The notes beneath the pieces are model-generated. The model was not told the DNA's origin, did no database searches, and saw only the letters and a program-made list of their open reading frames with translations. The translations under genes and the position numbers were made by a program. Positions 5,770-63,260 of a stretch of 64,000 bases of DNA are shown here, piece by piece (positions within the stretch are counted from its first letter, which is position 1; the number at the start of each line of letters is the position of its first letter). The DNA lies in NCBI GenBank assembly GCA_051362555.1, contig CM120649.1, forward strand, positions 2,108,001-2,172,000. The letters are read 5' to 3'. The DNA is from Lingula anatina. Taxonomy: Eukaryota; Animalia; Brachiopoda.

Positions 5770-6446
5770 AAATTCAATTAATGTTATAAAACCGCTGACA
5801 CTCCGTCTTGCATACTTTTATTAAACTAAGGTAAACAATGCCCGTTATCCTTACAAGTCATATCTTAATCATCCATCTTACTGCAACTTCCTTTACCTCT
5901 TAATTAGAGGGTGAAATGGCATTCAATTTGTCTTGTTTGTATCGAACGCACTCTAAGCTTTACTCCAGTTATCTCAGGTAAAAAATCTACCTGTGCGTTA
6001 ATTTCAAAGAGCAGCTCCCGTAGACCTGAGGGTACTAGATAAAATCTGAACACCAAATTTATCGAGGAGTTAGAGAAAGAAAGGAAGAATTTTTCCTGCA
6101 CAGCTTCATAGGAATATAAACACGGACTTGATCCAGCTTAGACCTCCAAACTAACAGGGTGACATGGGCAATTTTCACAAACAAATCATAAAACTATATT
6201 AGCCGCCTTTAAAATAAATATACCGTTCTGGGTAAATTAGAACATTATTAAATCGCGATAATATTTTTGACTTAAATGATGATTTTATTATTTATATTTA
6301 TATTTGGAAATTAAGCTACTATATGAGGTATATTTGCTGTGATTACGCTGTCCTTCATGTTTTGCGTAAGTCTACATTTTGCTGTACGTGCTTGTAATTT
6401 TCTAAAATCTGTGCGTACAGTTTTTGCAGGTCTGGTTACGCCCCTG
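5770..6446 (-). mobile_element. Partial copy of the CAGGGGCGTAAC-TIR non-autonomous DNA transposon family
   Basis: The reverse complement matches 23689-24460 (terminus GGTTACGCCCCTG; ORF 5904..6101 resembles ORF 24151..24351). Confidence 0.75.
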
Positions 6447-11300: not shown

Positions 11301-11455
11301 TTTGTACCCAATTCGTGCATGCAATAAGCGTATGCTTAACTGATTTCTTATTGATTTTTAACGTTCATGCAATATTCGTAATAGATTCTTTTAAATCGTA
11401 GTTACTTTTTGACAATTTTCGTGCGAATCCCACGAATACTCGTAACACTATCGCA
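8370..11455 (+). repeat. Local segmental duplication, unit 2
   Basis: Colinear similarity to 2050-4680, interrupted by MITE insertions at ~8890-9200. Confidence 0.8.
8892..9194. mobile_element. Small TIR element (CAGGGGCGGAT...ATCCGCCCTG) with a nested ~145-bp foldback (8939-9084)
   Basis: Short terminal inverted repeats; internal arms GGCTCCGTATCTCGAAA..GTTCGCTATGTTGCGCA and TGCGCAACATAGCGAAC..TTTCGAGATACGGAGCC. Similar outer termini occur at 21621-21866. Confidence 0.65.
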
Positions 11456-12600: not shown

Positions 12601-13547
12601 TTCTTCCAGGATTGGGGTTCAGGCCGTCCAAAATTGCCATCTGTTGCCATCCTTCGAAATATGAGGGCTTCCAGCTTTTCTAAGTAAAGTGCCTTTAACG
12701 GCGAGGGAGATGGGCTGTGTGAAACTAAACAGAAGTATATTTAAAAAAAAAATTAATCTCAAGGGGTAGAAAGGGTTAAACTTAATCGAAAGCGATCTCC
12801 TGCTATATTTCGCGAATGAACTGCCTTGAATGAATAAGAAAATTGCCTTCTCGTCTCGCTCAGATCGCGAACGATCTCCGGTTGACAATCTTTCGAGAAA
12901 GAAGTCCCTTAAACGAATCTGAAAACTGCCTTCTCGCTTTGCTTGGCCAAACATTTTATTTTTTGTTAAAAATACTTTTCCCGGAAAAATATTTGCAGTT
13001 TGAAAAATTTTGTTTACGCCGGTTTTCAGAAACTGCAGAGACTTGTGCTTTTATAATACGGTAAGGAACTACACCTTAGGCCTCCGTTTATCTTCGTTAG
13101 AAAAAGATCAATTAGTTCACTTTTCACATATGAAGCAGCCATTAGATGCCGAAACTGGAAATTCACTCTAGTTCTGGAATCGTTCAAGCCAGAGACATCC
13201 TGTTTGTGGTATTTTGTAGAGCTTATCAAGCTCAACACTGGCAGTGGTGTCTGTTTTTATACGGTATAGAAGTTGCACCTTTTGAAAAAATTCTAACCCT
13301 TTTACATGTGTATCTCCAATGCTGACAGAGAAATACAGATTGTTACAATTGAACTTGAATAGGAAGTCTTATATGCGCAATCTTAATTACTTATATAAAT
13401 CTACAACACCACATATGTGTACACAAAGCTCTAAATATCAACTGACTATGAATAAAGTCTATAGCGTTTATGACCTATTGCCTTCTTTCCACAGGTGTTG
13501 GTGACCTTGCACAGCAGCATAAGTACTATTAAGCTTGTGGCGGAGAT

Positions 13548-14067
13548 ATGGCTGGACTACCAATCAGTAATATTCACCCTGCCCTTGATTTGAAAATAAC
13601 CACCTTGCCATGTATGTTTCAACTTCGCATAGCAGAGAACCCATTGGCATATGCAGTGCTGGGGGCGACAGTTGGATTGGCTGGACTTTCTGCGTTTTAT
13701 CTTCTTCGGAAGGAGGACGTTAGGCGCGCCATCAGGGATGCGATAGTGGGCAACTACAACAATCAAGACCCAGTAGTTAATGATATTAACCCGGGTTCTT
13801 TGCTTGTGAATATTACATGCAAAACCAAAGAAAGTCTTCTGATGCTCGGGCGCCGATATCGTGATGGTTCTCTTGCTAAGGACCTAGAACACGGCTTAAG
13901 ATCAATCGGATACGACAAACCAATCACTGTGACTGCCGAAATAGATGGCAAACCATTTGCATTGGATAAGGTGCACCACGCACAACTACAGGTAATTTTC
14001 TGTAGAAACGTTGTAGACTATAGAAAGTTTATACAAAATCTGCTTATATTATTTATTCATGGCAGGA

Positions 14068-14131
<64 letters not shown>

Positions 14132-15283
14132 GAGGATATAGTTGATTCACTTTGGAAGAGTGCTCTACCCATGGTGACGGACCATAGGGAGCTGGTATAG
14201 AAAGACAAGAAAACGAACAAAGTTAATCTGTTCTCTCCATTTTAATCTATATAAGTCCCTACAGCTGTTTCGGCCTGGAGGCCTCGTCTGGAGGCAAACA
14301 GATCAAAAAACAAAAGAACTTTCTCAGTTGAAACATTTCACTTCCATTGAATTGTGGTAGATGTCGCATTTTACTTAAAGGAATCCATAAAGTGGGTGAG
14401 TTACAGTGTGGGGGCCTGGGGATATGGGGATGTAAAAAGTGCAAAAAGTTCACTTCTTTTTATTATATTTTGCACATTATATGGAGATGTACTGACGTGG
14501 AGGTGTATCATTTCAGGGGAATTAGGGTGAAGGAGATTAACGGTGCAAAACCGTATAGGGATGTAACCTTATAGGGACCTTAATTAAAGTTTACTTCTAT
14601 TTATTGTATTTCACAGGATATACTATAACGTAAAATCCCTTTCAATGTGCATAAAGTTGCTTCCAAGGGCATGAAACCCCGAATGATGTATTTATTTCAA
14701 TTTACTATAATGAAATTTGAAACTTGTGCATCTTGATTTTGGCTTCATACTTTTCATTTTTATGGTTCTTTTGCATTGCGTTCATATGTGACAAACTTAT
14801 ACTGAAAATTCCAAAATCAAGGTTAAAATCATATGGTGACATATCATTTTGTGTAGCTGCACCAGTAGAGTGGAATAAGTTGCCAATTTTTATTAATCAA
14901 ATAGAATCACAAGAATCTTTTAAAAAGGAATTAAAAACTAATATTTTTAAGACATTTTATTCATGAATTTTAAATTTTACAATTTTAAAGAAACCTTGGA
15001 TTTTTTTACTTTTAATTACTGTTTATTACAATTTAGATTAGCTCTTATTTATATAAAATATATCTTAACCATTTTATCTATAAACTTCTTTGTATTTTAT
15101 GTTGTACAGTCTATTGAACATTTAATGGATTTTAGACTTGAAATAAATATATTATATTATATTATTATTATATGTGTTTTCTAGGTGGGGCGAGGTGAAC
15201 ATCGTGGCGAATCACGTGGCAGGGCAGATGCCAGAGACAGACACTCCCAACAACGTCGTGAATCAGAAAAAGAACTTGTATAA
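13548..15283 (+). CDS. Membrane-anchored TRADD-N-like domain protein (coding exons 13548-13991 and 15185-15283, ~180 aa); the first exon is also a candidate 5' exon of the Roco gene
   Basis: Acceptor ..tttccacag|13495, in-frame upstream stop, ATG 13548. Hydrophobic helix LAYAVLGATVGLAGLSAFYLL followed by RKEDVRR, then the motif DINPGSLLVNITCKTKESLLMLGRRYRDGSLAKDLE, resembling TRADD-N-like domains of invertebrate death-fold proteins. Phase-0 donor CAG|gtaatt at 13991. The next acceptor ttttctag|15185 reads VGRGEHRG...EKELV-stop. Confidence 0.7.
14256..14295 (-). ncRNA. Penelope-type minimal hammerhead ribozyme-like motif, core degenerate
   Basis: Minus strand: C-CAGACGA-GGCC-tcca-GGCC-GAA-ACAGCTGT-A-GG. 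Perfect stem II and palindromic stem III; the core is CAGACGA instead of CUGANGA. Confidence 0.55.
14800..14970 (+). mobile_element. L2/CR1-type LINE 3' fragment
   Basis: KSYGDISFCVAAPVEWNKLP...ESFKKELKT resembles the conserved ORF2 C-terminus of the L2/CR1 clade. Confidence 0.7.
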
Positions 15284-15839
15284 GAGATTACCGTTTTGTT
15301 GAGACAACATAGGTAAGCCTACAATATCAGCCTCGATCAAGGCTTTTCCCAGCAAACCGTCTAGACCTGATTTGGACAGCCGCTGGCATCATCCGGACGG
15401 ACAATATATTCAAAGACGTTTGTACGGCTTACAGTTTTATTCATTTTAATTGATTTATTTATTTTATTATTATTATTATTATTATTTATTTATCTATTTA
15501 TTTTGAGAATGACGGTTGGCTTGTCTGGGCGCCCATTGCCGTCGTACGAAATTCTCTTAGAGTGATTTGACGTACCTAGCTTGTTTGATGTGTCCCAGTT
15601 GAATAATATTACTTTGTATTACATTGCTGTGCACGCTTTTATTCAGTCACGACGTAACTTCTACCTAATATTACAAAATACAATAATATGATTCCATTAA
15701 CTTTAAAGTACGTAATCCATGCCGAACGGAGCAGTGACAATTAACCTACCTACATTAGGTAAAACACGAATAGGTGTTCTGGAATAAGTCAGTCAGGTGT
15801 TAAACATAAATATAATCACTTATGTGACTCGTGATATTC

Positions 15840-16045
15840 AACCACACCCAGCACCCAGACCAAACACAGACCACACCCACAACACCTAGAGCACACTGAC
15901 ACCACACTGAGATAACACCCAGACCAAACACAGACCACACTGAGACAACACCCCGACCACACTGACACCACCTCCAGAACTCACCGACACCACAATGAGA
16001 TAACACCCAGACCAAACACAGACCACACTCAACCCAGACCCAGAG
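15840..16045. repeat. Imperfect ACCACAC/CAGACC-rich minisatellite
   Basis: Recurring units such as AACACCCAGACCAAACACAGACCACAC. Confidence 0.75.
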
Positions 16046-16167
16046 AAGACAGGGTTTAACAATAGTTGACTTACTATATGCCTTCACAAAAATGTAAGTT
16101 TTGTTTTAATTTCATGTATTTATAAAGACTATTGTTTTATTTATATTTTGAGAGGCATTTTGTACTA

Positions 16168-17553
16168 CACACACTGGACAAAAGAAGTGTCACCCCCTAA
16201 CTCAGAGTAATAAAAGTAGGCAGATCTTGGGTACTTATAATGCCTGGTCTACTTATAATGTGACTAATGAGTATAAAACCGCTATACCATGGAATTGTAT
16301 TGTTTGTCTTGTACATGTACAGCAAATGTTATTCCTGTCTTCCTCCAATATGGCAAGATACAGGCAATTATCTAACGGCTATAGGTGCAAGTTATTAACC
16401 TGAAGAGGCGGAATATAAGCAATGTCAGAATATCGATACAATTGAATTGTTCAGTCAAAACCGTGCAGAGGGTCTGGTCTCGGTATAGAAACACTGGATC
16501 AAGAGACAAATTGCCTCTGATGGGTCGTCCAAGAAAATATACTGGCCGTGAAGACCGACGACTGATTTTGATGTCGAGGTTGTCAAAGTTCGACACTGCT
16601 TGTCAGTTGACAACACAGTGGAACAATTTCACACATAAGAATGTGTCTGTGAAAATTGCTAGGCGTCGGTTACATGCTCAGAGAGTGTACAGCAGGGTAG
16701 CAAGACTGAAACCTCTTATATCGTTACAAAAAAGGCAACGTAGAGTAAACTAGGGTCAACAGGATCTGGAACTGGACAGTTCATGACAATTGGTCCTATA
16801 TATTTTTTCTGATGAGTGTCGCTTTGGTCTGACCTCTGATGACAAACGGGTACTATGCTGGCAAACTGCTGGTAAAGCATTTGAACCACATGCACTGAAT
16901 TTTCGAACCCGGAGCAGCATATTCATCATGGTGTGGGGCTGCATCAGCATCCATGGCTTGGGCGAATTGATAGTGGTTAATGAAAACATGAATCACTAGA
17001 AATATATCGATGTTTTGGAGTCAGGCTTGCTACCATCTATTACTAACATGTTTGATGACAGGAATTATCCATTTGTTCACCAGGATGACAATGCTCCTTG
17101 TCACAGGCCCAGAGCAGTTGATGATTGGTTTGACCAACAGGACATTCGCAGGGTGATGTGGCCTGCCCAGAGTCCGGATGCAAACATAATAGAAAATGTG
17201 TTGAATGATATGTCAATACTTTTTACAAATGCCCGTCTAACCAGCAAAAAAACTCTGTTATATTCAGTGTTTCATGCTTGGGCCAGCATAAGCCCTGAAC
17301 GCATCAGACAATTATATGAAACCTTGCTTCGTAGACTGGCACCTATTATTAGGTCACGTGGCTATGCCACTAAGTACTAATTTTGGACTTGAAACTGCAT
17401 ATTTTGGTAGAATGTATATTTTGTTCTAATTTTGTGATTTTTTGTGAATTTTGATGTTAATAAAATGATACCAGGAGCATATCATTCCACAGTCATTTAT
17501 CTCCCCCATAGTATTGGCTCAGTAGGGGTGACACTTCTTTTGTCCAGTGTGTG
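16168..17553 (+). mobile_element. Full-length but inactivated Tc1/mariner DNA transposon
   Basis: ~29-bp TIRs CACACACTGGACAAAAGAAGTGTCACCCC / GGGGTGACACTTCTTTTGTCCAGTGTGTG with TA TSDs. Transposase pieces (ORFs 16385, 16790, 17015) carry HTH/GRPRK, FSDE, QDDNAPCH and SPDANIIEN (DDE) motifs, interrupted by stops. Confidence 0.95.
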
Positions 17554-19761
17554 TATTTTGTTTTAGTGAAGTGAAGTGGAATTTTTCAAAATAAAGATAT
17601 TAAAAAACAAGCTGTTGTTCAAAAAGAGTCTAAACAATATCCCGATACAGTCTATTATTACAGTCAGACTTACGACCCACAGTCATCAGCAGTTGGATCT
17701 CTTGCCTCAAAAGTTATGAAACTATATAAGCTGAAAAGAGAAACGAGTCAGGCCAAAAGAACGGTAACTGTACAATGTAACTGCAAAGTTCTTAGAACAA
17801 GCCATCAGTTTGATAATAACAGTGAAGAATTCCGTTGACATATAAGAGAGCTCATATCAAGCTCTGTTTCTCAATAAAGTGATATTGTCATTACAAACAT
17901 TTTCCAAAATATGACCCAAAAAATCTTCAAAGACCAAACGAACCTGTTGGTTCTCATCCAAAGGAAAAAGTCGGGTCCGATGGGGCTATCGTCAGTATAA
18001 GGGAGGGGGTTGGGTGTATATTTGTAAGTTGAGGAACAAACAGAGGAATCCAGACCCTTCTAAGGGAGGTGTTGTTTTATTGACCCCTCTCAAGGACATG
18101 GTGCAGTTTACTTTGACCCTTTCTCCGACACTTCTAAGGGTGAGGCCTTGAAGTTTGATCCCTCTCGCGAACATAGTGTAGGTATCTGCATTGATCCTTT
18201 CTTAAACCCCTCTTATTTAGGGGTGGGGGTAATGTGAATTTTGATTCTTCTAAAAGCCAGGGTGAAATTTCCTCCACATACCTCTTTGATTGGCACAATG
18301 ACGTACACTCTTTGAAAACAAAATGTGAGTCACATTTTTCTGAAAAGTCCTCCGATATTGATACTTTCATATTAGGGGAAGAAATGGGAACTGAAATGAT
18401 TCCAAAATATGGTGCTTGCAAATGTAATTGTAAGGTAATTGTAACTGTATTTGTAAAAGAAACTAGATCTGAATGAAGACTTCAATTTTCTGAGATATTG
18501 CAGTTAGGTGCAATTGATTCAGTAACTGTTTTGTTTGCGATCAACAAACTGAGCACTCGGTGTCATGTATGTACATATATGAGAATGTTCGTGTTGGAGA
18601 AATCAGGGCAGCAACAACAGGGGATTAGCTGATAGCATGATATTGCAGATTAGGTGACAAGAGGTAGGTTTCCTAGTGATTAAGGCACAGATTCAGAATG
18701 ATTCAAGAAGCCACATTCTCTTCACAAGCCACGGGATCAATTTAGTGAGTATAAATTTAACCCTATAATATTTCTGAATTGGTTCCAGGTGAGAAGAAAC
18801 CCCAAGCATCTGTGACCAAAGTGAATGCTTGAACATTATCCTCTAGCGAAACATCTTAATTCAGGTGTTCATCTTTGAAGGTTATAAAATGGGCGTAGGT
18901 CATCGGGTCAACAGAATAAAAAGAAGCAAATTCAAATATTTTTCAATAATTGGAGGACTCTACCGTGAAACTAAAACAAAGAAAAAACATATAAAAGTAT
19001 TTGTTCAGTATACATAAATGTTACAATTTTTGAACGCAAATTACAGAGTTGAAAATACTAGTATCACCATTCTCTGGTCATCAACATTTACTTTCTGTGA
19101 CTAAACAATCTAATATTCTTTATTGTTAATAAGTTGAGATACATGTAGCAATATAATATATATATATAAGATTTAATAAATTCTATACAATTTTGTGCCT
19201 AAATATCTCACCAGTATGTGCCGCGTTCAACAAAATGATCCCCTCCGGATTCTACCGCTGATATTTCTCTGCTACCCTCTACAGCCTGGCCCACACTGCA
19301 TACTCTCAAGGGTTCGTATGACCAACAAAAACTGTTCATTTATGTACATGAAGTGCAGTAGATGTGCATGGTTAGTGCATGGTTAGCACACCCACTGCAA
19401 TACAGACTCTGTTTATACATACCGGTGTAATGTGACAGAGAATCCCTCATGACAGAGAGTCCGCTTCCCATTCATTTGTACAGGAAAACCTTTGACCTAC
19501 TTATAAGGTCAAGCTTTACCCTAACCATTTCAACTATATGTAAGGCTGACTTTCTGTTACATGTTGTAGAAAAATAAGGAAACAACAACTGAAATTGCTC
19601 TTCTTTGTTACTAAGAACAAATAGTCGATCTTTCACGTCAGACTTTGTGTGCAAATGTCTTTGTGATTTTTGAAAAACGTTTGTATACCTCACTTCGTTC
19701 TTCAACAGTGATTACAGTATTCAGATTAAACTCCATTTTTATCTATCTATCTATTTTCATT

Positions 19762-20272
19762 CGCTAGATTCCGCACAATCTGGAAGTCAGAGCAGTACAG
19801 CTTACACACCAAAGTCCATCTTTACAACAGCAGTGTGAAGTCTGGGTCTGAATGTTGGAGAGTTACAAAGTCTGACATGAGCAGAGTAGAGTCCTTCCAT
19901 AACAGGTGTCTCCGCAGAATCTGCCGCATATTCTGGCCAAATAAGATCTCCAACCATGACCTGTACATACTGACAGGGAGCCAGAGTATTGTAGGGCAGA
20001 TCAAGCGACGACGGTTTAAATGGCTCGGCCATGTACTTAGGATGGACGAGAACCGAGTACCAAAGGAAGCTCTGAGATGGACACCACCCGGAAAAAGGAA
20101 GAGAGGAAGGCCCAAGACCACCTGGCGCCGAACAGTGATGGCAGAGCTGAGGGAGGGGGACCTTACATGGGGACAGGCCCAGCACGTAGCCAGAGACAGG
20201 GCCAAATGGAAAGAAGTGAATGTGGCCTTATGTCCCACATGGGACGAAGAGCACTGCTGCTGATGATGATGA
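19762..20272 (+). mobile_element. RTE-type LINE 3' end
   Basis: ORF 19835..20263 (ESFHNRCLRRICRIFWP..KWLGHVLRM..GKRKRGRPKTTW) followed by a (TGA)n tail. Confidence 0.9.
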
Positions 20273-21035
20273 TCTATTTTACTCAAAGTTTAATTGTTTT
20301 ATTCGAAAATAAATAACAACATAGTCTTTTCTTTAGGCACCGCTAAGTTCGTTGAGTTATTGAGAAATAAGAAGCAATGTTTGATTAAGCTATAATTTAT
20401 TGTTTTTGTCTTGTGAGATTTTACAATTAAGGCTGTCCTTGGGCGATTCTAAGAAGCGCTTAACGAGTAAAATGCTCTGTAATTATTGTTTTTTTTTCTT
20501 TTAGATTTTATTTGCAATAAAAATCCTGGAACTCATATGATTAACCAAGGTATCGGGGTCAGTCTATAGAACAAATTAATGGGGGATTCAAACAGACTAT
20601 AGTTCGTATATGGTTGATAGCACACCACAGATAAAACATCCGATAGTGCCAGCATGCGGCGAGAGTACTAATCTTTTGCAATTGGTGTACCTGTGCCACA
20701 TCCAGCCCGGTTAAACAAGTAAAAAGAAAGGTTGTATTTATAAACCTATATTGTTGACAAAGACGGGCAATGTTTGATAACGGTATTAAAATTAACATTT
20801 ACAATCACTGGTGCGGGACAGAGCGCCTGCTACATTTATGAAGATAAAGATGCTTTTGAGCACCTAGATCTACCAGTACGTTGCTTAACAAGCCACGACT
20901 GTATGTAATTTTTTGAAAAATCAACTATGCTTAATGAGCATAGCACTGGAATCTATCGTCAGTCAGAATTAAAGAAAAATAATGTTTATGCAAAAGGGTA
21001 TGTAAACAGCGTAGGCGATTTCAAAGCACATATTA

Positions 21036-21330
21036 TTAATAATAATAATTCATTGTCATATTCATAGCTAAAAGTATAAAATGAGAAATTTCAGTGCGTG
21101 CAGAAGTTACTTTTGATGGCCGTAGTCGATTTGATGACATAGGTAGAAGAAGACTATTCGCTGGGTGACCAGGGTCACCCATGATTGACTTCACTTTCCT
21201 GAGCACTCGTCTCATATACAAACATTCAATTGAGGGCAATTCCCTACCCACAATGCTGCTGGCAGTTTTTACTACGCGATCGAGGCGATTCTTGTCTTCT
21301 GCTGAAGCACCACGTACCGTACCAGCAATA
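21036..21330 (-). mobile_element. Non-LTR retrotransposon 3' fragment (Rex1/L2-like)
   Basis: LDRVVKTASSIVG..RKVKSIMGDPGHPAN resembles a LINE ORF2 C-terminus; AT-rich repeat tail. Confidence 0.65.
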
Positions 21331-21616
21331 TCCCGCACGAAAACGAAGTAGATACTCCAGCGCAGTAGAGTACTGCAATCATACTGCAAACATGCTTCAA
21401 ATCTGCTTCGATTTGGGAGCTGATTAGCATATTTGAAACATGCTTCTATCATGCTGCTAATCTACTGCATTAATGCTCCTCCTCTGTACAACCCTATGTA
21501 ATTTTTGAAGTAGAATTGCAGTAGGCTATGCTGCATTTCTACTGCAAATATGCTCCACACCACTACTGCGTTAATGCTTCTTTGCTACTTCGATACTACT
21601 GCATTTTCTTGCGGGA
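21331..21616. mobile_element. MITE with TCCCGCA...TGCGGGA termini
   Basis: Imperfect TIRs, TA on both flanks, internal CTACTGCA repeats. Confidence 0.6.
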
Positions 21617-21620
21617 TATG

Positions 21621-21866
21621 CAGTGGCGGATTTAGAGGGGGATCAGGGGGGTCCCTTCGATTTCTGGTCCACTCTTGAAATTAGAATTTTAACTAGTTGA
21701 ATCATAGCTCTAAACCGTACCAAATTGTACCGTTCGCCCTCTAAAATACTAAAAATACCCGAACTCCACGCCGAATGGAGGGGGGGGGGGGAATATGGGG
21801 GGGGGGGGTCGGCTTCACATCTGCGGACTCCCCCCCCCCCTTCAAATAATCCTGGATCCGCCCCTG
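21621..21866. mobile_element. Small TIR element (CAGTGGCGGAT...ATCCGCCCCTG)
   Basis: Terminal inverted repeats of the same type as 8892-9194. Confidence 0.65.
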
Positions 21867-23572
21867 TATATGCAACATCATCAAGGATTTCCCTGTGGTC
21901 AATTGTAATTCTTTCCACATAACGCACTAATATCCAATCCATTTTTCCATTTTCTTTTTAAATTTCCCAACTCTTAATTTTTACCTCCTCTTTACTTTCT
22001 TAATAAAACATGAACGAAAATAACAACGAAAATAATGCGGTGCGCCTGCGCAGAAAAGTTTTATCGGATTTTTTTAACTTGGCGGCGCTGATGTCATTAC
22101 TTTATTCTCAGGTCAGTTTCAGGTAACAGAGCCTGACAATAGAACTAATACACGACCTACATTAGGAAGGAGGAGAAACTACAAACAGGCATCTACACGC
22201 AAATAGTCATCACAGGATTTGAATAGTAAGTACCAATCAACCATTCAGTAAGTTTTGAACAGAGAAATTATTTTTACTAAGTTACTTGTTAATGCACTTT
22301 TAAGCTGAAGGCGGTAGGCGGCTGGGTAGGCACACCCTTAACAGATATCAACCGACAAGCGTTCGATAAGGTCACGTGGTTTTACTTGTGGTACAGGTAG
22401 ACCGAGTGGAGAGTCTTCAAGGACAATGTCATTTTCTTGGGGCTAAGAATAATTAAATATTATTTAATATAATTTCTAGGCAACCGTAGTTATTATTTTA
22501 TTTATTTATTTTTTTTTTGCATTTTGATAACTTAAAGGGTTAACGATAAAAAAGAACTGTATGCAGAGGAATAAGATGTTGACGCATGTACAAAAAGGGC
22601 GCTTTTTGAATATTGAAGAAGTGTTTACAGTCTAGCTGTTTATTAAAACCACCAGCGTGAGCGCTGGCGGAACTCGTGGTTTTCGGCCGCTACGTCTCCG
22701 TTCTCCAATAAGATTACAAGGGCCCGTGTCCCCGTCTCCGGGAACAAGGTCACATACCATTTCGGGGTTTTGTCGATACTCCCCCGCACCGCTCCCCCCC
22801 CCCCTCCCCCACACAAATATTCCCCCTAGTAAACTTTTGCATTATTCGCATAGATACGACCCTATATCGATAGATCCCCTCATCTATACATCCCCTGTAA
22901 AATCACCGTTACTCCCCCACTTTAAATTTGATACTCCCCCGCATCGATACTCCCCTTATTCCATGTTTTCATATTATGGACATTTTTCTCATCGAAATTA
23001 TAATAAAAATAGGCCATATAAATTTTACAGTCTGACGTGATAGATTGACATTTCTAATGGAATCTAAGCTGTGGGAGAGTAACAGTGCGTGGGGGTATTG
23101 GTGTGGGGACATTAAGATACAGGGGAGTATGAATGCCAGTAGCATCGTTGCGGGGGAGGGGGGTGGGGGTAATTTGAGATTTGGCTTAGCAAATTATTCG
23201 GCCCTTACTTGAACCACTATAATTATTATTATCTCAACTTTATTTGGTTTGTGGTGCCCTTTGAAAAACTTTGATGAGTTTTGGTAAGTCAATACATGTA
23301 CTAGTATATAAAGTGTAAATACATTGGCCTTTGCTAAAATAATCCTTATTTGGGACGAAGTTGAGAAAAAAAGCCAAATAATGTCAAAGCCAAATTTGAA
23401 TATTCTGTAAAAATTTACAAAGTCCACAATGCTACATCTTAATACAAATGTCCAAATGTGAACTGAATATTTGGGGAGCAAGCCCAGCTTTTTTTAAACC
23501 TATTTTCCTCTTTCTACAGGCGTTGATGGCCTTGATTAACAGCTTAAGATGTACTAAACCTGAGTCGCACTT

Positions 23573-24985
23573 ATGGCTGGAGCACCGACCTCTAACATTC
23601 TCCCTGCCCTTGAGTTGAATATAACCTTTCCATATACGTTTCAACTTCGCATAGCAGACAACAGATTGGCATATGCAGTGCTGGGGACCAGGGGCGTAAC
23701 CAGACCTTTAAAAATTGTACGCACAGATTTTTAAAATTCCCAGCAAAATGTAGACTAATGCAAGAGATGATGATCGAAGGACAGCGTAATTACAGCATAT
23801 GTACCACACATCGCAGCTTAATTTCCATTTTAATGGAATATTATTAAAATAATAAAATCATCATTTAGTCAGAAATATTCTCGCAATTAAAAAAGTTTCA
23901 ATATTCTTATTACCCAGAACGGTATATTTATTTAAAAGGAGGCTAGCTTCGCATATGTGGAACCCCTTCGAATAATCCTGGATCCACCTCTGAGTTGAAA
24001 TAACATACGGTTTCATTCACCTTACATGTGGATGCATGGCTCCCAAAAACAACCAACGACAGAGCTCTGATACATCTAAGTTTAATTATTTGTTTGTAAA
24101 AATTGCCCATGTCACCCTGTTAGTTTGGAGGGGTAAGTTGGGTCAAGTCCATGTCAAAATTCTTTGAAGCTTTGCAGGAAAAATTCTTCCTTTGTTTCTC
24201 TAGCTCCTTCTTTAACCTATTGTCCAGATTTTATCTAGTGCCCCCAGGGTTGCGGGAGCTGCTCTTCGAAAATAACACTCAGGCAGATTTTTACCTGATA
24301 TTTATATCGCCAGCGAGAATGCGTTCAAGAAAGAGGGTACAGAAGAGTTGAGGGCCACTGAACCTTTCAATTAAGAGGTAAAGGAAGTTCCAGTTAGATG
24401 GACGATTAAGATAGGACTTGTTAAGGTTACGGGCATTGTTTACCTCAGTTTGCAAGACGGGGGAGGAGGGGGGTCAGAACAATAGTGCCTATACAATTGA
24501 TACAGAGGGTTCGTACATACAGGTGACTTTAAAAAGCAGAGGATTTTCTTTTGTATTCCGTGAAAAATACACTAAATTTATATAAAATAATATCATGGTT
24601 GGCCAAAAAAATTGTACGCACAGTGCATCCGTGCGTATGCCTAGTTACGCCCATGGGGACGACAGTTGGATTGGCTGGACTTGCTGCGTTTTGTCTTCGA
24701 CGAAGTGAGGACGTTCGTCGCATCATCAGGAATGTGATCGTTGGCAATGACAATGATCAAGACCCAGCAGTTAATGATATTAACCCGGGTTCTTTGCTTG
24801 TGGATATTACATGTAAAACCAGAGAGAGTCTCCTGACGCTGGGGCGCCGATATAGTGATGGTTCTCTGACTACGGACATAGAAAAGGGCCTTAAATCAAT
24901 CGGATACGAGAAAGCAATCACTGTGACTGCAGAAAAAGATGGTAGATCATTTGCATTGGACAAGGTGCACCAAGCTCTACTACAG
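23573..24985 (+). pseudogene. Second TM + TRADD-N-like exon, interrupted by a transposon (pieces 23573-23688 and 24661-24985)
   Basis: Acceptor at 23520 and ATG at 23573 (same 53-nt spacing as the paralog). Removing 23689-24660 restores an open frame MAGAPTSNILPALEL...LAYAVLGTTVGLAGLAAF...DINPGSLLVDITCKTRESL...ALLQ ending at a phase-0 donor CAG|gtaatt. Confidence 0.8.
23689..24655 (+). mobile_element. Non-autonomous DNA transposon (967 bp) inserted in a coding exon
   Basis: TIRs CAGGGGCGTAAC / GTTACGCCCATG; 5-bp TSD GGGAC (23684-23688, 24656-24660). The empty site is visible in the paralog near 13655-13675. Confidence 0.9.
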
Positions 24986-25041
24986 GTAATTTTCAGTAAA
25001 CAAAGAAAGTTTATGCTTATTTATGCCATGGGGTAGTGGTG

Positions 25042-25084
<43 letters not shown>

Positions 25085-25603
25085 TAAACTTTTCTGAGAA
25101 ACATTTTCCAATTGTTTTGTTTGCTGTGTCAATGTCACTTCTTTTTTTCGTAAATTCTAGGTACTTTTTGTACATAGAATTGCATAAAAAATGAGGCCAC
25201 TATTGTAGCACCAACGTGGTGCCCGTCTCGTTGACCGGCTCCGTTGACCCCACTGGCCCCGTCACCAAGTCACCTTTAATTACCGCTTCTCTTCTTAGAC
25301 TACAAGACCTTGTGTACCCATCTCTTGGGTGTAGGGCAAATATGATCTCAACTCAATCCATGAAAATTTTGGACTTTTACTATCGCTGCACTGGTCCAGG
25401 TGAGGCGCTAATTGCAATGAACCCTTGTCTAAAATTTGCAAAATTAAAATATCTCCGAAAACAAAGGAATTATGGGAAAAGTTACTGTAGAAGTGTGACC
25501 GAAAATCATATGTGGAGATTTCAAATATGCCCTAGGATTTGGCCTTTAATTATTTCAAGGTCAAACAGGCCAAATTTAAATGTTCTTAAAATGGGAATTT
25601 TCT

Positions 25604-25648
<45 letters not shown>

Positions 25649-25816
25649 ACTTCATATACATGTAGCTTTCATCCCCATCCCTCTCCCACTAATATTCTGT
25701 TCTGTATTGTCAGCAAAGGTGTCTTACTTTACCAGGCAGGTAAAATTGGTGCTTGGAATGTTAATGGTTCATTTAAAAGAATTGCTTATGAAAGAATTAT
25801 TAAGTTTGATCTACCT

Positions 25817-27170
25817 TAAAGGGATAATAACATTGGCCAAAAAATGAATTTTCCTGGAGCAAGCAACAATTTTCCCATACTTACCAATGGTTAATGAATC
25901 CATTTTTACATTTAAAGTTAGTCCCTGTTTTTTTTTCTAAAAAGTTTGGTTTTTGTTAAAATCTCTTAGGGGGCATTCCCATAGATTTTAGATCGATCTA
26001 TCCACGTGGGGAGTCTCACTGGATTACTGTTAAATAATCCGGCTTAAATGTCCGTCCCGCCTACTACAAGCTGTAAGGGGTAATTAACTTTCGTGCCCGC
26101 TCGGCTGACAGTTATTTAGCTTGAACCCCCAGGGAGTTAGGTCGATCTAGTTGGATCAATCTTATCTCTGGGAATGGGGTCTTAGTGTGGAACCCATCCA
26201 CAGTGAGCTCCAACCAGGCAATTAGCTAAATTGCTGTCCGCTTCGTCGGCTAAAATGTTTGTCCTGCCTACTAAAAACTGTAAAGGGGTAATTTACTTCC
26301 GTGCGCGCTCTGCTGACAGCAATTTAGCGTGAACCCCCAGGGAGTTAGGTCGATCCAGATGGATCGATCTATATCTGTGGGAATGCAGTCTAAGACTTGG
26401 TTCCCATACATAGATCCATCCATCTGGATCGATGTAACTCCCTGGGGAGTCTTACTAAATTGCTATCAAATAACTGGTTTAAATGTCTGTCACAACTACA
26501 CAATCAGCTAGGGGGTAAAGACTATTATCCCCTAACAGCTTCACTAGGTGCAACAGACATTTAAGCCTGTCAAGTTGACACCAATTTAGTGAGACTCACC
26601 AGGGAGATAGATCAATCCAAATATATGTGGGACTGGTCTCTAACTCTGTCCAATTTACTGTGAAAACACCCGGGGGACTAACTAATGTCATTAAGGCTTC
26701 ATTCACATGCAATGTCTATTTTCTAAATTCTATTTTCTATTCGCGGTATCTTATGATCATGGTCTGTGCCCTGAATATCCCGCGGCGTAATTACTGGCAG
26801 CGTGAGCCAGTTACTATAAGTTACTATAAGTAACTGGCTCGCGCTGCCAGTAATTACGCGGCGGGATACTCAGGGCACAGACCATGATCATAAGATACCG
26901 CGAATAGAAAATAGAATTTAGAAAATAGACATTGCATGTGAATGAAGCCTAATACTAGTGCAGGCGTCAAACAGGGTTGCGTTTTCAGTCCCTTACTGTT
27001 CAACATCTTATTCCTGACCTGTTCCTTGACAATAAAAAATACAACCCTGTTCACCTTAGGGACCATTCCCACAGAAGTTAGTTAGTTGATAACAATTTAG
27101 TGAGACTCCCCAGGGAGTTAGATCGATCCAGATGGATCGATCTATGTATGGGAACCCAGTCCTATAAAGA
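25817..27170. repeat. Composite repeat region: Kolobok-like terminus and direct/inverted GGGAGTTAGGTCGATCCAGATGGATCGATCTA units
   Basis: 25817-25965 resembles 59946-60100; the repeat unit recurs in both orientations and again at ~49430-49570. Confidence 0.6.
26695..26949. mobile_element. Foldback MITE (PIF/Harbinger-like), near-perfect 255-bp palindrome
   Basis: ~120-bp inverted arms GGCTTCATTCACATGCAATG... / ...CATTGCATGTGAATGAAGCC, with a TAA TSD on both sides. Confidence 0.9.
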
Positions 27171-27699
27171 TAAACCTTATATATATATACTGTAGGTGAA
27201 GTTGTTTATCAATAAAGAATCTGAAATCTTTGGGAGTTTGGGGTAAATTTGTGCATTTTCAGAGGAGAAGCAGCCGTCAGATACTCAACCAGAAAACTCT
27301 CTTTAATTCTGGGACCGTAAATGCTAGAGACCTCTTGTTTGTTGCATTTTGTAGACCTTGTCAAGTGCAACATTCAAGGCGGTGTCCATTTTTTTTTTGT
27401 TTTTCATACGGTTTCCGGGATTAGTTTGGAACCCCAAAAGCGTGAGCTATTTAAGCCCAGTATGTAAAAAAAATGGTGGGCTAACTATTTTCAAAAATTG
27501 TAGGCTAAATTGTATATACACTGATGCTCATAAGCTATAAGCAACACTTAAATCTTATTTCTCAAATTTCTCAGCAACCAAGCTTTTTATTGAGGAAAAA
27601 TTTGAACAGTAGCTATATATTTCTCTTGTTCATACTTTGATTGCTTTTGGTTTGATTGCTTGTTCTTACTTTGATTACTATGATTGGCGATTCGGAAAA

Positions 27700-28337
27700 C
27701 TTTGATTTGCAAGATCTTATTGTGAATGGAGAGATCATAGAAACAGTTGACAATTGTAACTACCTTGGTGCAGAAATCACAAACAACTCCAATGACAGCA
27801 AAGAGATATAAAAAGGAGACTTGCGATTGCCAGAAAAACAGTGATTAGTCTCTCAAATATTTGGAAGGATAGAGCCATCACGATGTGTACGAAACTAAGA
27901 ATTTTGAAGACCCTTGTATTCCTAGTTGCAACATACGAGTGCGAATGCTGGGTGGTGAAAAAATCGGATGAGAACCGACTAAAATCATTTGAAATATGGT
28001 GCTACAGAAGGATCCTGAGAATTAGTTGGAAAGAACGGAAAACAAATGAATGGGTCTTGGATAAAATTGGAAAAATGACTCTTTTGAACAGCATCAATAA
28101 GCGGAAACTGTCCTCTATATGGGGCATGTAGCTAGAAGCTCAGGGTTGGGAAATGATATCCTGACAGGCATTGTCAATGGAACTAGAAGAAGAGGGAGAC
28201 AACGACGGAGGCTGCAAGACGATATATACAGAGCGGTGGGCTTGACAGTGGCTGTACTTTTCAAGGCTGTTGGAGGCGTACCGTTGCATGTGCCATGGCG
28301 TATCAGCCTTAACCTTTCTGTCTCTGATGATGATGAT
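27700..28337 (+). mobile_element. RTE-type LINE 3' end, frameshifted
   Basis: YLG motif region, TKLRILKTLVF..SFEIWCYRRILRISW, GHVAR..GTRRRGRQRRR, and a (TGA)n tail. Confidence 0.9.
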
Positions 28338-28499
28338 GTTCTTACTTTGAATTACTGGTCTGTGGCATTTGAGTACTATTTACAGTTGGAAAGGATAGAA
28401 TTTGCAATAGGGGTACCACTTGTGAAAAACATAATTTGGGCATGCCATGTGGAGCTTTAAGTTTGGCTAGTTTCATGGGCACAAATCGTTATATTGTAC

Positions 28500-29670
28500 C
28501 AACCAATGGTTAGAAGAAGAAGACTCAATGAGATAATCAGATGGCAAATAATAGGAAGCCATCGTGCTGGGGTGCCAAAGAGACAGATTCCAAGGCAACA
28601 GAGAGTACCACCAATTAAATCAAGTGCCCAAGCTGGTAGCAAATTGGCGCCAAACTCATCATGTATTGGACAAGCCTCTTTCTGGTAGATTAATATTAAC
28701 CGATGCAAGATATAGATGTCTGGTTCGACTATGCCACCAGGACCGGTTCATGTCAGCCAAACAACTGAGAAATATCTGGCCTGGATAAGGAAGAGCTTGA
28801 ATCAGTAGGCAAACAGTTAACAGGCATCTTTTAGAAGCTGAACTTCCATCTAAAAGACCTCGTAAAAAGCCACCTTTGACCAACAGACACAGGCAGATAA
28901 GATTGGCATAAACCAGATACCGAGAAAGATGGAGTCTCAGGATGGGCGAAGGGTCCTGTGGACGAGAGCAGATTCACTTTGATGTATGCAGATGGTCGGC
29001 TAGGAGTATGGAGAGGTCCCAACCAAGCATTTCAGGATGATTGTGTTCTCCCACATGCTCAGGGTGGCGGAGTATCCATCATAGTATGTTGCGGCTTCTC
29101 ATATGATGAATAATTGCCACTACGTCATTCAAGGAAGGTACACTGGTCAACGATACAGAGACGAAATACCATTGGGGTGCAAACAATCACACATTCATGC
29201 ATCTCCAGAAAGGAAAATCATTTTGGTGCAGGACAATTCAGCCATCCATAAAGCACGGTCCGTGGAAGACGCGCTACAACAGCACGGTATCCCATGGATT
29301 GGCCTGCATATTCCCCATTTTTCAATGTAATCGAACATGCTTAGGGTATGGTAGGCAGAGCAGTAAATCAGAGACAATTAACCTCCAGTCGGAAACATAA
29401 GAATGCTCCAGCAGGCAGTAATTGAAGAATATGGAACCCAATTCCCAAAGCAAGCTTGACAGAATTCTGTGGCAAATTAAGTTGCAGGAGACAATGTGAA
29501 GCAGTCATTCAAAACCAGGGAGTCCACACCCAATATTTATTGGATGATAGATGATTAATTATCTATTATCAACAGTTTTCTTTTATTAAAACTAATTCTT
29601 AGATGATTGATTTTTATTTTTTCATGATAAGCTGTTTTAAGCACCACAAAATTTTTGATGTGTGAGCATA
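28500..29670 (+). mobile_element. Degraded Tc1-like transposon
   Basis: Fragments MVRRRRLNE.., KRPRKKPPL, VDESRF, VQDNSAIHKAR in shifting frames; TIRs not resolved. Confidence 0.8.
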
Positions 29671-29884
29671 CTTTCTAGACATATGGTTTGGCATATTTTG
29701 GTACCATTTGGTTTATAAAGTTATTACAATAAGCAATGTGGTGTATTTCATTGACAGAAATATTTAATTTGAATAAGTTTTTAATAAAATATGAAAAAAT
29801 ATGCTTAATCCCACTTACAAATGTTATAATGATCATGACAGAAGAAATTTTTGAAAAAAATTGCAGTGTTGCTTTGCTAATGAG

Positions 29885-29920
<36 letters not shown>

Positions 29921-30115
29921 CCTGTACATTTAGCTATTGCAAAAAAAAAATTGATAAATAATTAAACCTCAGTCATTAAACATATTATGTAATATTGTAT
30001 CGATATTGACAAATGACCTATTTTGTGCATCAGTATTTTACACCTTTTTTCTGTAGGTTTGACATTGTTGCTGACTTGTTTGTCATTCTCTCTGTTATTA
30101 TTATTATTATTTCAG

Positions 30116-30245
30116 GACCAACTAAGACAGGGGCCAGTCAATTATAGCCGAGAGAAGGAATCCATGGAGCAGAAGAAAGATTTGACAGCATTTCATAAAC
30201 ATGTCCCTCCACATGTTATAAAACGATTGAATGAGAAACTCTCTT
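30116..30245 (+). pseudogene. Partial, internally deleted duplicate of Roco exon 30489-31121
   Basis: Own acceptor tttcag|GACCAACTAAGACA; DQLRQGPV-NYSREKESM..FHKHVPPHVIKRLNE versus DQLRQEPV...NYSEKESM..FHKHVPTSVKKRLNE. The upstream intron is duplicated too; in-frame stop at 30272. Confidence 0.75.
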
Positions 30246-30410
30246 TTTTTGTGTTATTTGTTGTTCATAACTAAAATTCAGTGTTGATCTGGCTGTTAAA
30301 CTGTATGTAATATTTTATTGAAATTGGCAAAATAACCTATTTGTGCATCAGTGTTTTATGCTTTTTTTCTGTAGGTTTGACAGTGTTGCTGCCTTGTTTG
30401 TCTTTCTCTC

Positions 30411-30463
<53 letters not shown>

Positions 30464-30488
30464 CATATTGTTAACATCAATATTTCAG

Positions 30489-32891
30489 GACCAACTAAGA
30501 CAAGAGCCAGTCTCTGGTCAGCAACAGGAGCAGCAAGGTGGTGTCTACTTTCAAATGAGAAGGAAATCAGGCCATGACTTCCCACCTTTACCCCCACAAC
30601 AGGACCCTGTGGCTGCTAGGGATCAAGACCAGGGTGCTGCTGACCCTCAGATCATCAGAACTTGGAGAAACCAGGCTCAAAACCAGGCCCATGGGGATGA
30701 TCAGTTGGAAAGGTTACCTACGGCAGTGACACATGGGATTGCTGGGGTTCTAACACAGATCCCCACTAATACAAGCAGCATGCATATTACATTCAATGTT
30801 CAGCAGGTTTACCACAATTACTCAGAAAAGGAATCAATGCCAAGCATGAAAGAGAGAGATGTGACAGCGTCATTTCATAAACATGTCCCTACAAGTGTGA
30901 AAAAACGACTGAATGAGACACTTTCTCAAGATGATGTATGGAACCAAGTAAAGAAGATGTATGGCATTCCAGATGAAACCCCATGTCCTCCTGATGTTGT
31001 GTCTTCTTTGCTGTCTCAAGTTGAGGGTTCTATTGCATCTTTCATCAGTGTGTTGTTAAAGTTAAAGGAACGCCACAGAGGACAGCAAGACATTCCACAA
31101 CATTTGATTGATGAAGTTAAGGTATTTTATCAATTGGTCTAATGAAAGACTCTGAGGTTTAAACTTTTTGTGAAACTTTACACTAAGATTTACAGTGTGT
31201 ATAATATATTTTTTTGGCTTTCAAGATTTTATATTATGTATACCTCTGTGATATCTATTAAAAAAATCAGCAAATCTCTATCTTCACATTCCAAATGACA
31301 TATAATAACTTAATTCATATTTTGCATCCATTTTGTTTTCAATTGCAAAGATTTACTTGCTGCCAGCATGGCGCTTTGCCAAAATTTAAGTTTATGATAA
31401 AGTTTGAAAATGCACATGTCCACACAAACTACTGTCAGTACTTACAATGTACTTGCCTTGTTATTTTTCTTTCCTAGGGTGGACTAAGGAATGAAATGGA
31501 GTATAAGAAACTTAGGCAGAATAAGATACTCTTTGCTGAGGAACTTCATATTGATATTGGAAGAATTTTAGATTACTTCAATCACTATGATATGGTGCCA
31601 GACGAGGAGATTGCATTGCTTAAAAATAGTGTGAAGGAAAATCCACGAGATGCCTGTAGAAAGTTGTTTGAAATACTAATTGCAGGCAGCCCTGAAAAAC
31701 AACCAATCAAATATTTGAAAGATATTCTCAGAAAGTGCCGACATTGGCATCTGGCAGATGAACTCGAAGTTAGCTACCAGGATGTAGAGTATGAATTACA
31801 GAAACAGAGGTGGCCTTCTTGTGAAGAGCCATTGGCGATAGGAATGGCAGCTCTCCCCACACCTGCTACAGGTGAAAACCCTCTTGGAACACATTAAAAC
31901 TATGTGTACAGTGTTTGACAGTATTTATCAAGATTTTTATGCTATTTGGGTCACCGTGGACTAAGAACATATGGTGTGTTACCACATATATTGACATCAG
32001 ATAAAGTAAATCTATATTTACTGATTTTGAGCAACTGATGAAAAACTACAATGAGACATTTTAAAATATGTACCGTTCAGCATCAATTGTGTAAAAATCT
32101 TTTAACAGAAAGATGACAGAAATTTTAAGCAAAACCTAGTGGCCCATGAAACCATCATTACTGTTTGGGGACTTCAGTGTTGATTTGTATTAGATCTCCT
32201 ACAACCTGCTTATGTTCCTCTTTTATAATAGCATAGAAGAGTTTGAAATTTTGCATGCCTGCGGCCAGTTTTGCAGAGTGTACTATGAGTTAAAGAATGT
32301 TTTTAAAAATTTTAATCTGTGCCAGAACGGCATGAAAAAGAGATATTTCCATACAGATTATTGAGAACGCCTGAACCAGTGTCCAACTCCATGTCGACAT
32401 TATTGCGCTAGTTTCCAACATACTTCTTTGACAGAAGCATACTTCGCCAAAGCCCAGCTTTGACCAGCCCAAAGGAACACTAACCAATCAAATCAATGTA
32501 TAATTAATTGCTAGCGACATACCTGACTACGCACTTCTCCAGTCAGATATATATATGAGATCTGAAATTTTGATTCCGGGAATCAGATTTTCATGTTATG
32601 GTTATGGAGATCGGGCTTTTATAATCTATCCCCCCATATTATGGAATGCCTTACCAAATTTTATAAGAAAAGCAGACAACTTCGGCAATTTTGAATCCCT
32701 TCTTAAAACTCACATCTTTAAATCTGTCTTTATCTCTTAGATTTTTTTATATTTTTAATAATGTTTTTTAGTACTGTTGATTTTAAATGGTTTCCAATGA
32801 GTGTCTTAGATTTAAATATCGTTGTGATTTTAATGATTTTAGTTATATTATTTATTATTGTAAGGCACCTTGAGGTAGCACGTAAGGCGCC

Positions 32892-41900: not shown

Positions 41901-42220
41901 TTGAAGCTGGTGATGTTCTTGAGTCAAGAGGGGCATGTTTCTTCAGCTGTTGTAGTGGAGATGAAGGTGGGTGTCGTTTAGACCATATTGGTAAACTCCA
42001 CTGTTGTTATTGTTAAACTGTTGAAATAAAGAGACAAATTGAATGAAAGTATAAATTCAAAATTTGATCAATTTAAAATACATAATTTTTAGGTTAGGCC
42101 ACACTTTTTTATTTTTATGGATGACATCCTGCGCGCGCACCGAATTTCGTCCGTTCTCAAAAAAAAAAAAAAAAAAATCCCCCCCCCCGCCCCTTCCCTC
42201 CCCCCCCCCCCGCCCTTGCC

Positions 42221-55693: not shown

Positions 55694-63260
<7,567 letters not shown>

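What the first reader, a model, noticed from the sequence alone, without database searches (positions are those of the whole stretch)
13495..31121. Tandem 5' cassettes encoding membrane anchor + TRADD-N-like domain that can splice in frame to the Roco body
Seen: the Roco body begins at a phase-0 acceptor (30489) with no start exon of its own. Two paralogous upstream exons (13548-13991; 23573-24985) start with ATG, encode a TM helix with a basic flank plus a GSL-motif TRADD-N-like domain, and end in phase-0 donors. Joining the first gives ~1527 aa: TM-TRADD-N-like-CARD-ROC-COR-CARD. Known: TRADD-N binds TRAF2. Inference: a membrane-tethered GTPase signalling platform recruiting TRAFs and caspases, with variable first exons on a constant body. 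This is the best candidate for an undescribed innate-immune or cell-death system in the window.
Basis: partly seen in the sequence, partly recalled or inferred. Interest (0 to 1): 0.9.

Follow-up and report, generated by a model that had tools for sequence, protein, structure and literature searches.

The report
Duplicated TRADD-N start exons, Roco gene
A marine invertebrate gene for a likely immune or cell-death GTPase has two copies of its start-codon exon; one is broken by a transposon, and the supposed membrane anchor is predicted to lie inside a TRADD-N adaptor domain, so this is likely a variant of a known protein kind rather than a new receptor system.

Summary
The exons, splice phases and the 1527-aa open join are real, and cassette 1 is predicted to fold as TRADD-N (Foldseek E 5e-5; VIA Z 12.3). 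(1) Cassette 2 is no open exon: a 967-bp inverted-repeat element splits it and stops the frame at codon 54. (2) Both cassettes have an acceptor 53 nt before the ATG, so they are second exons of duplicated 5' units. (3) The 'TM helix' (33-53) lies between strands 1 and 2 of the predicted TRADD-N fold, which spans residues 16-147; a membrane-spanning anchor would split the sheet. The closest relative is a Lingula anatina Roco (81% in the COR exon), so the host is likely a lingulid brachiopod. RNA reads (mostly 90-95% alike) show the 31121>31478 splice and read-through past donor 31871, pointing to a short TRADD-N-CARD form; no cassette-to-body junction was listed. TRADD-N+Death+Roco+Death+Death proteins are already catalogued in Acropora (Kaur 2021), whose authors say TRAF is no universal partner. 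What looks new is a conserved glycine-rich hydrophobic insert within this TRADD-N subfamily, shared with a coral. Interest 0.4.

The parts
2352..4678 (+). Third, partial copy of the 5' unit (candidate non-coding first exon near 2545-2658), with no cassette behind it
   Evidence: 80-82% alike to 8594-8754 and 9696-11455; no match to the cassette in 4600-8600 above shuffled scores
9674..9963 (+). Candidate non-coding first exon and intron start of unit 1 (donor-like sites at 9693 and 9768, no ATG in 9684-9768); inferred, not shown by RNA
13495..13991 (+). Cassette 1: acceptor, 53-nt 5' UTR, ATG 13548, 148 aa that form one predicted TRADD-N domain (16-147) with a hydrophobic Gly/Ala-rich stretch at 33-53; phase-0 donor
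22103..22555 (+). Candidate non-coding first exon and intron start of unit 2 (donor-like sites at 22122 and 22225, no ATG in 22113-22225); inferred
23520..24985 (+). Cassette 2: paralog of cassette 1, broken by an insertion; stop at 23732; an ATG at the element's right end (24653) opens 111 aa that lack the first strand of the fold
23689..24655 (.). 967-bp non-coding inverted-repeat transposon with a 5-bp target duplication
29986..30244 (+). Decayed duplicate of the acceptor and part of exon 30489 (acceptor at 30117, large internal deletion)
30489..31121 (+). Body exon: Gln-rich linker and an unidentified ~90-aa helical domain (X); phase 0 on both sides
   Evidence: splice to 31478 seen in related RNA reads
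31478..31897 (+). CARD-like exon; phase-1 donor at 31871 towards ROC, or read-through to a stop at 31895-31897 (short form)
33643..38291 (+). Four ROC GTPase exons (33643-33912, 34134-34181, 37337-37870, 38170-38291)
   Evidence: same order in Lingula anatina XP_023932245.1, 77% identical over model 528-1253
39868..41031 (+). End of ROC and COR exon
   Evidence: Pfam COR-A E 1e-19; 81% to the Lingula protein
41295..41966 (+). Linker and second copy of domain X
48406..48708 (+). Last exon: CARD and stop
   Evidence: Pfam CARD E 1.2e-6, above cut-off

Best explanation
This is a Roco GTPase gene, likely of a lingulid brachiopod, with a tandemly duplicated 5' end: the intact start exon, predicted to fold as one TRADD-N domain, likely splices to the X-CARD-ROC-COR-X-CARD body, the second copy is broken by a transposon, and the product would act as an intracellular immune or cell-death switch rather than as a transmembrane receptor. 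Shown: exon structure and phases, the insertion, the domain matches, the exon 30489-to-CARD splice and read-through past donor 31871 in related reads. Inferred: unit 1 is transcribed from its own upstream exon, skips the now 1.47-kb cassette 2 and joins 30489; a long form (1527 aa) and a short form (TRADD-N-X-CARD, about 498 aa, stop at 31895) are both made at this locus or its relatives. Inferred mechanism: GTP-dependent ROC-COR dimerisation (recalled Roco behaviour) clusters the CARDs, which would recruit CARD caspases or adaptors; TRADD-N would hold the flanking parts inactive until a signal rearranges its Ser-bearing face (model of Kaur et al.); the short form would be an adaptor or decoy; the hydrophobic stretch would be a protruding hairpin that binds a membrane surface or a partner, not a membrane-spanning helix.
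For: Open 1527-aa join with GT-AG sites. The body has no start of its own and only the cassettes offer an ATG with a phase-0 donor upstream. Related unnamed contigs show the same exon plan (acceptor, short UTR, ATG, whole domain, donor: L001, L002) and one contiguous frame joining the module to coiled coil, Ig and a Death-like domain (L003). Model: strands 22-30, 76-81, 85-91, 126-132; GS between the second and third, as in Kaur's definition; whole-domain match 16-147 to TRADD 8-137, 120 aligned, rmsd 3.0, Z 12.3, next unrelated row 6.8. Atlas first hit 0.94 to a 149-aa cluster, 46% TRADD-like_N. ROC-to-CARD exon order matches Lingula XP_023932245.1. Spliced reads 31121>31478: 10 joint reads and 31 loose-end reads in 3 of 4 runs; 24 reads cover 31883, against 36 at 31854. 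CpG o/e 0.72-0.77 in the cassettes and 0.12-0.37 in 7 body exons fits 5' exons of an expressed gene (methylation logic recalled).
Against: No read junction into 30489 is listed (21 loose-end rows shown, 32 not shown; first bin depth under 1.5), and none from 31871 to ROC. Only 1 of 551 laid reads is 99% or more alike, so the reads come from paralogs or divergent alleles and this copy's expression is not shown. The Lingula relative is annotated without this head; an older model puts an unrelated RRM gene in front. No long protein carrying the cassette was found (weak searches). dN/dS between the cassettes is 0.77, not significantly under 1 (p 0.36). Residues 36-44 of the model have pLDDT under 50 and the model has no membrane. 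All partners and the signalling role are inferred.
Confidence: 0.55

Rival explanations
1. Two transcription units: a short TRADD-N-X-CARD adaptor gene ends at the stop 31895-31897, and the Roco body is joined rarely, or to another start.
For: 24 reads cover 31883, 12 nt past the donor, against 36 at 31854, and depth continues to about 32260 on the sense strand in stranded run X4. X-CARD is a repeated unit that ends the Roco body with a stop. The Lingula relative is annotated from the P-loop on. Short TRADD-N+CARD proteins are listed in Orbicella.
Against: The ROC exon begins with a phase-1 acceptor and no ATG before the P-loop helix; the phase-1 donor at 31871 lies 1.8 kb upstream and fits. 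The reads are not from this copy; unspliced RNA could add to them.
Confidence: 0.2
2. A decaying copy: unit 2 was the gene's true 5' end, the insertion knocked it out in this haplotype, and cassette 1 is the left-over head of a neighbouring duplicate that lost its body.
For: Partial duplicates are common here: a cassette-less unit at 2352-4678, a decayed exon at 30117, a 327-bp tandem repeat over the ROC acceptor. 1 of 551 reads matches at 99% or more. Including cassette 2 after cassette 1 gives a stop. Both cassette frames would stay open by chance in 18 of 100 neutral simulations.
Against: The whole 1527-aa frame and all 18 splice sites of the model are intact; no body remnant lies between the cassettes.
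Confidence: 0.13
3. One reading: two working variable exons give membrane-spanning TRADD-N heads on a constant Roco body that recruits TRAFs and caspases.
For: Each cassette has its own copy of a candidate first exon with conserved donor-like sites; equal phases; the hydrophobic stretch with aromatic and basic flank is kept in relatives (19-residue means 1.30-2.08 in 26 rows from 13 clusters); the Ser that contacts TRAF2 in TRADD is kept; the insertion may be absent from other haplotypes.
Against: Cassette 2 is broken; 8 in-frame GT-AG pairs around the element exist, none restores the domain and none has a pyrimidine tract. The stretch lies inside the predicted fold. Kaur et al.: no matching MATH expansions, MATH not a universal partner. 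Two copies at 75% identity give little diversity.
Confidence: 0.12

Closest known systems
Invertebrate TRADD-N + death-fold + AP-GTPase (Roco) proteins, e.g. [quoted passage not shown] 2021, PMC8195603, Figure 4 source data 1)
   Same: N-terminal TRADD-N, a death-fold domain, ROC-COR, then C-terminal death-fold domains; marine sessile host group; Lingula has about 31-33 such TRADD-N proteins.
   Different: CARDs instead of Death domains, an unidentified domain before each CARD, and a hydrophobic insert in the TRADD-N domain. None of the 11 APGTPase rows has CARD or TM. The Acropora sequence could not be fetched, so whether it has the insert is unknown.
Lingula anatina LOC106170327 (XP_023932245.1)
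   Same: ROC-COR-X-CARD, same exon order, 77% and 70% identical over the two matched blocks.
   Different: Annotated from the P-loop on, without TRADD-N or first CARD; longer linker after COR.
Human TRADD N-terminal domain (PDB 1F3V, 1F2H)
   Same: Predicted fold over 120 residues and the GS turn.
   Different: 17-18% identity; about 9 extra residues before the Ser, in a hydrophobic segment; TRAF binding not shown.
Trichoplax Roco proteins with CARD and death domains (PMC4104024, passages)
   Same: Expanded Roco family with death-fold domains around ROC-COR.
   Different: No TRADD-N named there.
Variable 5' cassette genes: clustered protocadherins, UGT1, chelicerate sDscam (PMC4835542, abstract)
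   Same: Tandem 5' units of about two exons in front of one body.
   Different: Only two cassettes, one broken, a third unit empty; promoters and junctions not shown.

Membership tests
TRADD-N superfamily | RRM-like alpha+beta fold with four-stranded sheet and kinked helices | tested here: met
   Predicted model; top hits 1f3v (E 5.2e-5, TM 0.65) and 1f2h; Z 12.3, rmsd 3.0, 120 aligned. Pfam alone is below cut-off (E 0.031).
TRADD-N superfamily | uS motif in the turn between strands 2 and 3 | tested here: met
   G83-S84 invariant in 28 of 28 rows, between strands 76-81 and 85-91; definition.
TRADD-like TRAF adaptor | Binds the MATH domain of a TRAF | not testable with these tools
   No host TRAF sequence was on hand; Kaur et al. 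state that MATH is not a universal partner.
Roco (AP-GTPase) family | ROC followed by COR in one frame | tested here: met
   Pfam Roc E 7.8e-10 and COR-A E 1e-19, both above cut-off; in frame.
Roco (AP-GTPase) family | Intact GTP-binding motifs | tested here: met
   GHHRAGKT, WDFGGQ and THKD read in the model; motif patterns recalled; activity untested.
Single-pass membrane-anchored receptor | About 20 uncharged hydrophobic residues with a basic flank | tested here: met
   23 uncharged residues, mean 1.69, followed by RKEDVRR.
Single-pass membrane-anchored receptor | The helix lies outside the folded domains | tested here: not met
   Strand 22-30 precedes it and the structural match runs from residue 16; based on a predicted model without membrane.
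Variable 5' cassette genes (Pcdh, UGT1, sDscam type) | Several intact alternative cassettes | tested here: not met
   1 of 2 intact in this sequence; other haplotypes unseen.
Variable 5' cassette genes (Pcdh, UGT1, sDscam type) | Each cassette has its own promoter | tested here: inconclusive
   A homologous non-coding segment with donor-like sites precedes each; no RNA was laid there.
Variable 5' cassette genes (Pcdh, UGT1, sDscam type) | Each cassette is spliced to the common exon | tested here: inconclusive
   No junction into 30489 among the rows shown; low depth; 32 rows not shown.
CARD | Match to the CARD profile | tested here: met
   Last domain PF00619 28.9 bits, cut-off 23.9; first domain below cut-off but homologous to the last.

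The most novel reading that the evidence does not exclude
A widespread animal TRADD-N subfamily carries a glycine-rich hydrophobic hairpin inside the fold that works as a membrane-insertion switch: on a signal it docks or inserts into a membrane and brings a Roco-CARD platform there. In lingulids this head is swapped by promoter choice among duplicated 5' units, with transposon insertions switching single heads off between individuals.
Probability: 0.15. Interest if true: 0.75.

Novelty: new variant of a known kind. Interest (0 to 1): 0.4.

Why it matters
Invertebrate TRADD-N proteins are known only from sequence; their partners and triggers are open. This locus adds a CARD-type TRADD-N-Roco with a likely short adaptor form, and points to a subfamily whose conserved hydrophobic insert gives a concrete test (delete it, follow localisation and killing) of how such domains switch. 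It also warns that a hydrophobic stretch next to a short Pfam match can be part of the domain. It is not evidence for a new diversified receptor system.

Tried and rejected
No whole genome is held, so paralogs could not be counted. No RNA holder was listed for the COR exon; nine raw-read runs with the same species label were offered, four were laid on 30462-32700 only; the cassettes and upstream units have no read data. Searches for longer proteins with the cassette found none (260-2000 aa among 2235 candidates; 504-2000 aa among 7995); both are weak. Of 15 hits, P0007 and P0021 were dropped (partial, other domains, not hit by the family profile). The COR exon found no locus in JGI metagenomes. 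The cassette profile has no sequence match to TRADD in the PDB, nor the two CARDs. Domain X stays unidentified: no Pfam, model pTM 0.47, no Foldseek match under E 2, best Z 5.4, Atlas under 0.9; my first guess of a death fold is neither shown nor excluded. No Rfam match in the window. Three look-ups of earlier findings returned nothing. Upstream of the shared non-coding segment, unit 2 shows no similarity above shuffled scores to the other units, so the segment could also be a dispersed repeat. Rejected: cassette 2 as an open exon; cassettes as first exons; a spanning helix in front of the domain.
Full report
Observation. The window is animal genomic DNA with spliced genes. Pfam passes Roc, COR-A and the last CARD; the first CARD (E 0.006) and the TRADD-like_N match (E 0.03) are below cut-off. 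The two CARDs are homologous, and each follows a ~90-aa helical domain, here X, that ends at the same exon boundary. X could not be identified. The order is TRADD-N, linker, X, CARD, ROC, COR, linker, X, CARD.

Host. The closest protein is Lingula anatina XP_023932245.1, 81% identical over the COR exon; the next three hits are at 31-34%. It shares the exon order from the P-loop to the last CARD. The host is therefore likely a lingulid brachiopod (inference). That record starts at the P-loop; an older model joins it to an RRM-containing neighbour through what reads as intron sequence.

Cassette 2 is broken. The span 23573-24985 is 969 nt longer than cassette 1 because a 967-bp element sits in codon 39, with terminal inverted repeats, a 5-bp target duplication and two more copies in the window. 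The frame stops at codon 54. An ATG in the element's right end opens 111 aa without the first strand. Eight in-frame GT-AG pairs flank the element; none restores the domain or has a pyrimidine tract. Apart from the element the frame is open and 75% identical to cassette 1; dN/dS 0.77 is not significantly under 1, and both frames stay open in 18 of 100 neutral simulations. The insertion looks recent and may be polymorphic (inference).

The cassettes are second exons of duplicated 5' units. Both have an acceptor 53 nt before the ATG. A non-coding segment of 300-450 bp occurs three times, at 2545, 9674 and 22103, 75-83% alike, with donor-like sites kept in all three. Two copies precede the cassettes by 3.7 and 1.3 kb; the first has none behind it. 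CpG o/e is 0.72-0.77 in the cassettes and 0.12-0.37 in seven body exons, as expected for 5' exons of a gene with a methylated body (recalled). These are candidate first exons only; no reads were laid there. No body remnant lies between the cassettes. So the layout does recall variable 5' cassette genes (PMC4835542, abstract; PMC3325998, search listing), but with one working cassette, in a region rich in small partial duplications.

The fold and the 'TM helix'. A search of 1.84 billion representatives gave 15 hits; 13 are full-length relatives of 130-287 aa at 27-38% identity; the only named one is from the coral Desmophyllum pertusum. With 26 such rows, the model (mean pLDDT 70.5) matches TRADD-N best (1f3v, E 5.2e-5, TM 0.65); residues 16-147 align to TRADD 8-137, 120 pairs, rmsd 3.0, Z 12.3. 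The Atlas agrees: 0.94 to a 149-aa eukaryotic cluster, 46% of members TRADD-like_N. Kaur et al. place the conserved uS motif between strands 2 and 3; here G83-S84 lies between strands 76-81 and 85-91, so strand 1 is 22-30, whose Leu26 and Ile28 are kept in 90% or more of rows. The hydrophobic stretch 33-53 comes after it. A spanning helix would put strand 1 across the membrane from its sheet. The model shows two short helices with a low-confidence Gly-rich break (36-44). The stretch is conserved: best 19-residue means 1.30-2.08 in the 26 rows, then aromatic and basic residues, and it is doubled in P0011 and P0012. A surface-binding or insertable hairpin, or a partner-binding surface, is the better reading (inference; the model has no membrane).

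Relatives keep the exon plan. Three unnamed metagenome contigs carry the module. L001 and L002 show acceptor, short UTR, ATG, whole domain and a donor-like end (phase 2 there); L003 reads on in one frame of 548 aa into a coiled coil, an Ig domain and a Death-like domain (E 0.005, below cut-off), as a spliced transcript would; L002 has a caspase-domain frame upstream. This supports splicing of such an exon to death-fold exons. No single chain with this module and ROC-COR was found.

RNA. Four of nine offered runs were laid on 30462-32700, 6-30% of each run read. Of 551 reads, 1 is 99% or more alike, 36 are 95-99% and 514 are 90-95%, with several haplotypes: paralogs or divergent alleles. The stranded runs read the + strand. 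The splice 31121>31478 is seen (10 joint and 31 loose-end reads, 3 of 4 runs). No junction into 30489 is among the 21 loose-end rows shown (32 not shown; depth under 1.5 in that bin), so the key claim stays open. Reads run on past the donor at 31871: 36 at 31854, 24 at 31883, 17 at 31913. Read-through gives a stop at 31895, a short TRADD-N-X-CARD form. No 31871>ROC loose end is among the rows shown.

How it likely works. See Best explanation: a Roco switch with CARDs at both sides and a TRADD-N head, plus a short form; partners and triggers are inferred from family knowledge.

What is known. PMC8195603 (abstract, sections 8, 10-13, 16, passages, searches in supplementary file 4, which is cut when stored; file 13 not searched; 60 of 77 Lingula places seen) reports TRADD-N expansions in sessile marine animals, brachiopods included, with shuffled immune and death-fold domains. 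Its table has 11 APGTPase rows, four of them Acropora TRADDN+Death+APGTPase+COR+Death+Death, and 28 TM+TRADDN places, none with AP-GTPase. It says that MATH is not a universal partner. Trichoplax Rocos with CARD and death domains are described (PMC4104024, passages), as are exon shuffling and alternative splicing in brown-algal Rocos (PMC11378527, abstract). Searches for TRADD-N with Roco (2 papers), Lingula with Roco (7 listed, one relevant) and TRADD-N with membrane, hydrophobic, coral (20 of 6871 listed) showed no description of this gene or of the hydrophobic insert; subscription journals are not covered.

Verdict. Real gene, correctly pieced together, with the right fold call; wrong on two working cassettes, on first exons and likely on the membrane anchor; the architecture is a known theme. 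The residual novelty is the hydrophobic insert in a widespread TRADD-N subfamily, the short form, and the duplicated 5' units. New variant of a known kind; interest 0.4.

Noticed in passing
window 33080-33735: 327-bp tandem repeat with 2 differences that duplicates the acceptor and first 92 nt of the first ROC exon (33316 against 33643); recent duplication or assembly error.
   Followed up: partly
window 46150-48333 (-): Broken gag and reverse-transcriptase remnants of an LTR-type retroelement (Pfam), ending about 70 bp before the acceptor of the last CARD exon.
   Followed up: partly
window 16385-17380, 19730-20263, 27796-28460, 28659-29460: Tc1-like transposase pieces and LINE-like ends fill the stretch between the cassettes and the body (the last piece by eye only).
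   Followed up: partly
window 30849-31121 and 41688-41966: Unidentified ~90-aa helical domain, twice, each time directly before a CARD exon; kept in the Lingula relative.
   Followed up: yes
window 2352-4678: Third copy of the 5' unit with no cassette; its candidate exon alone has an ATG.
   Followed up: partly
L002 909-1592: Caspase-domain frame with QGH where the catalytic QAC motif is expected (motif recalled), about 6 kb upstream of a related TRADD-N exon.
   Followed up: partly
P0011, P0012, P0037: The strand-plus-hydrophobic-stretch unit is doubled inside the domain; P0012 also has a long GQLAAGGA repeat.
   Followed up: no
window 59156-60073 (+): Armadillo-repeat exons that look like importin alpha (Pfam Arm; name from recall), with a 69-bp tandem repeat over an acceptor at 59655-59795.
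   Followed up: no
window 51900-52160 (-): A reading frame for a small hydrophobic membrane protein on the opposite strand, convergent with the Roco gene; not identified.
   Followed up: no
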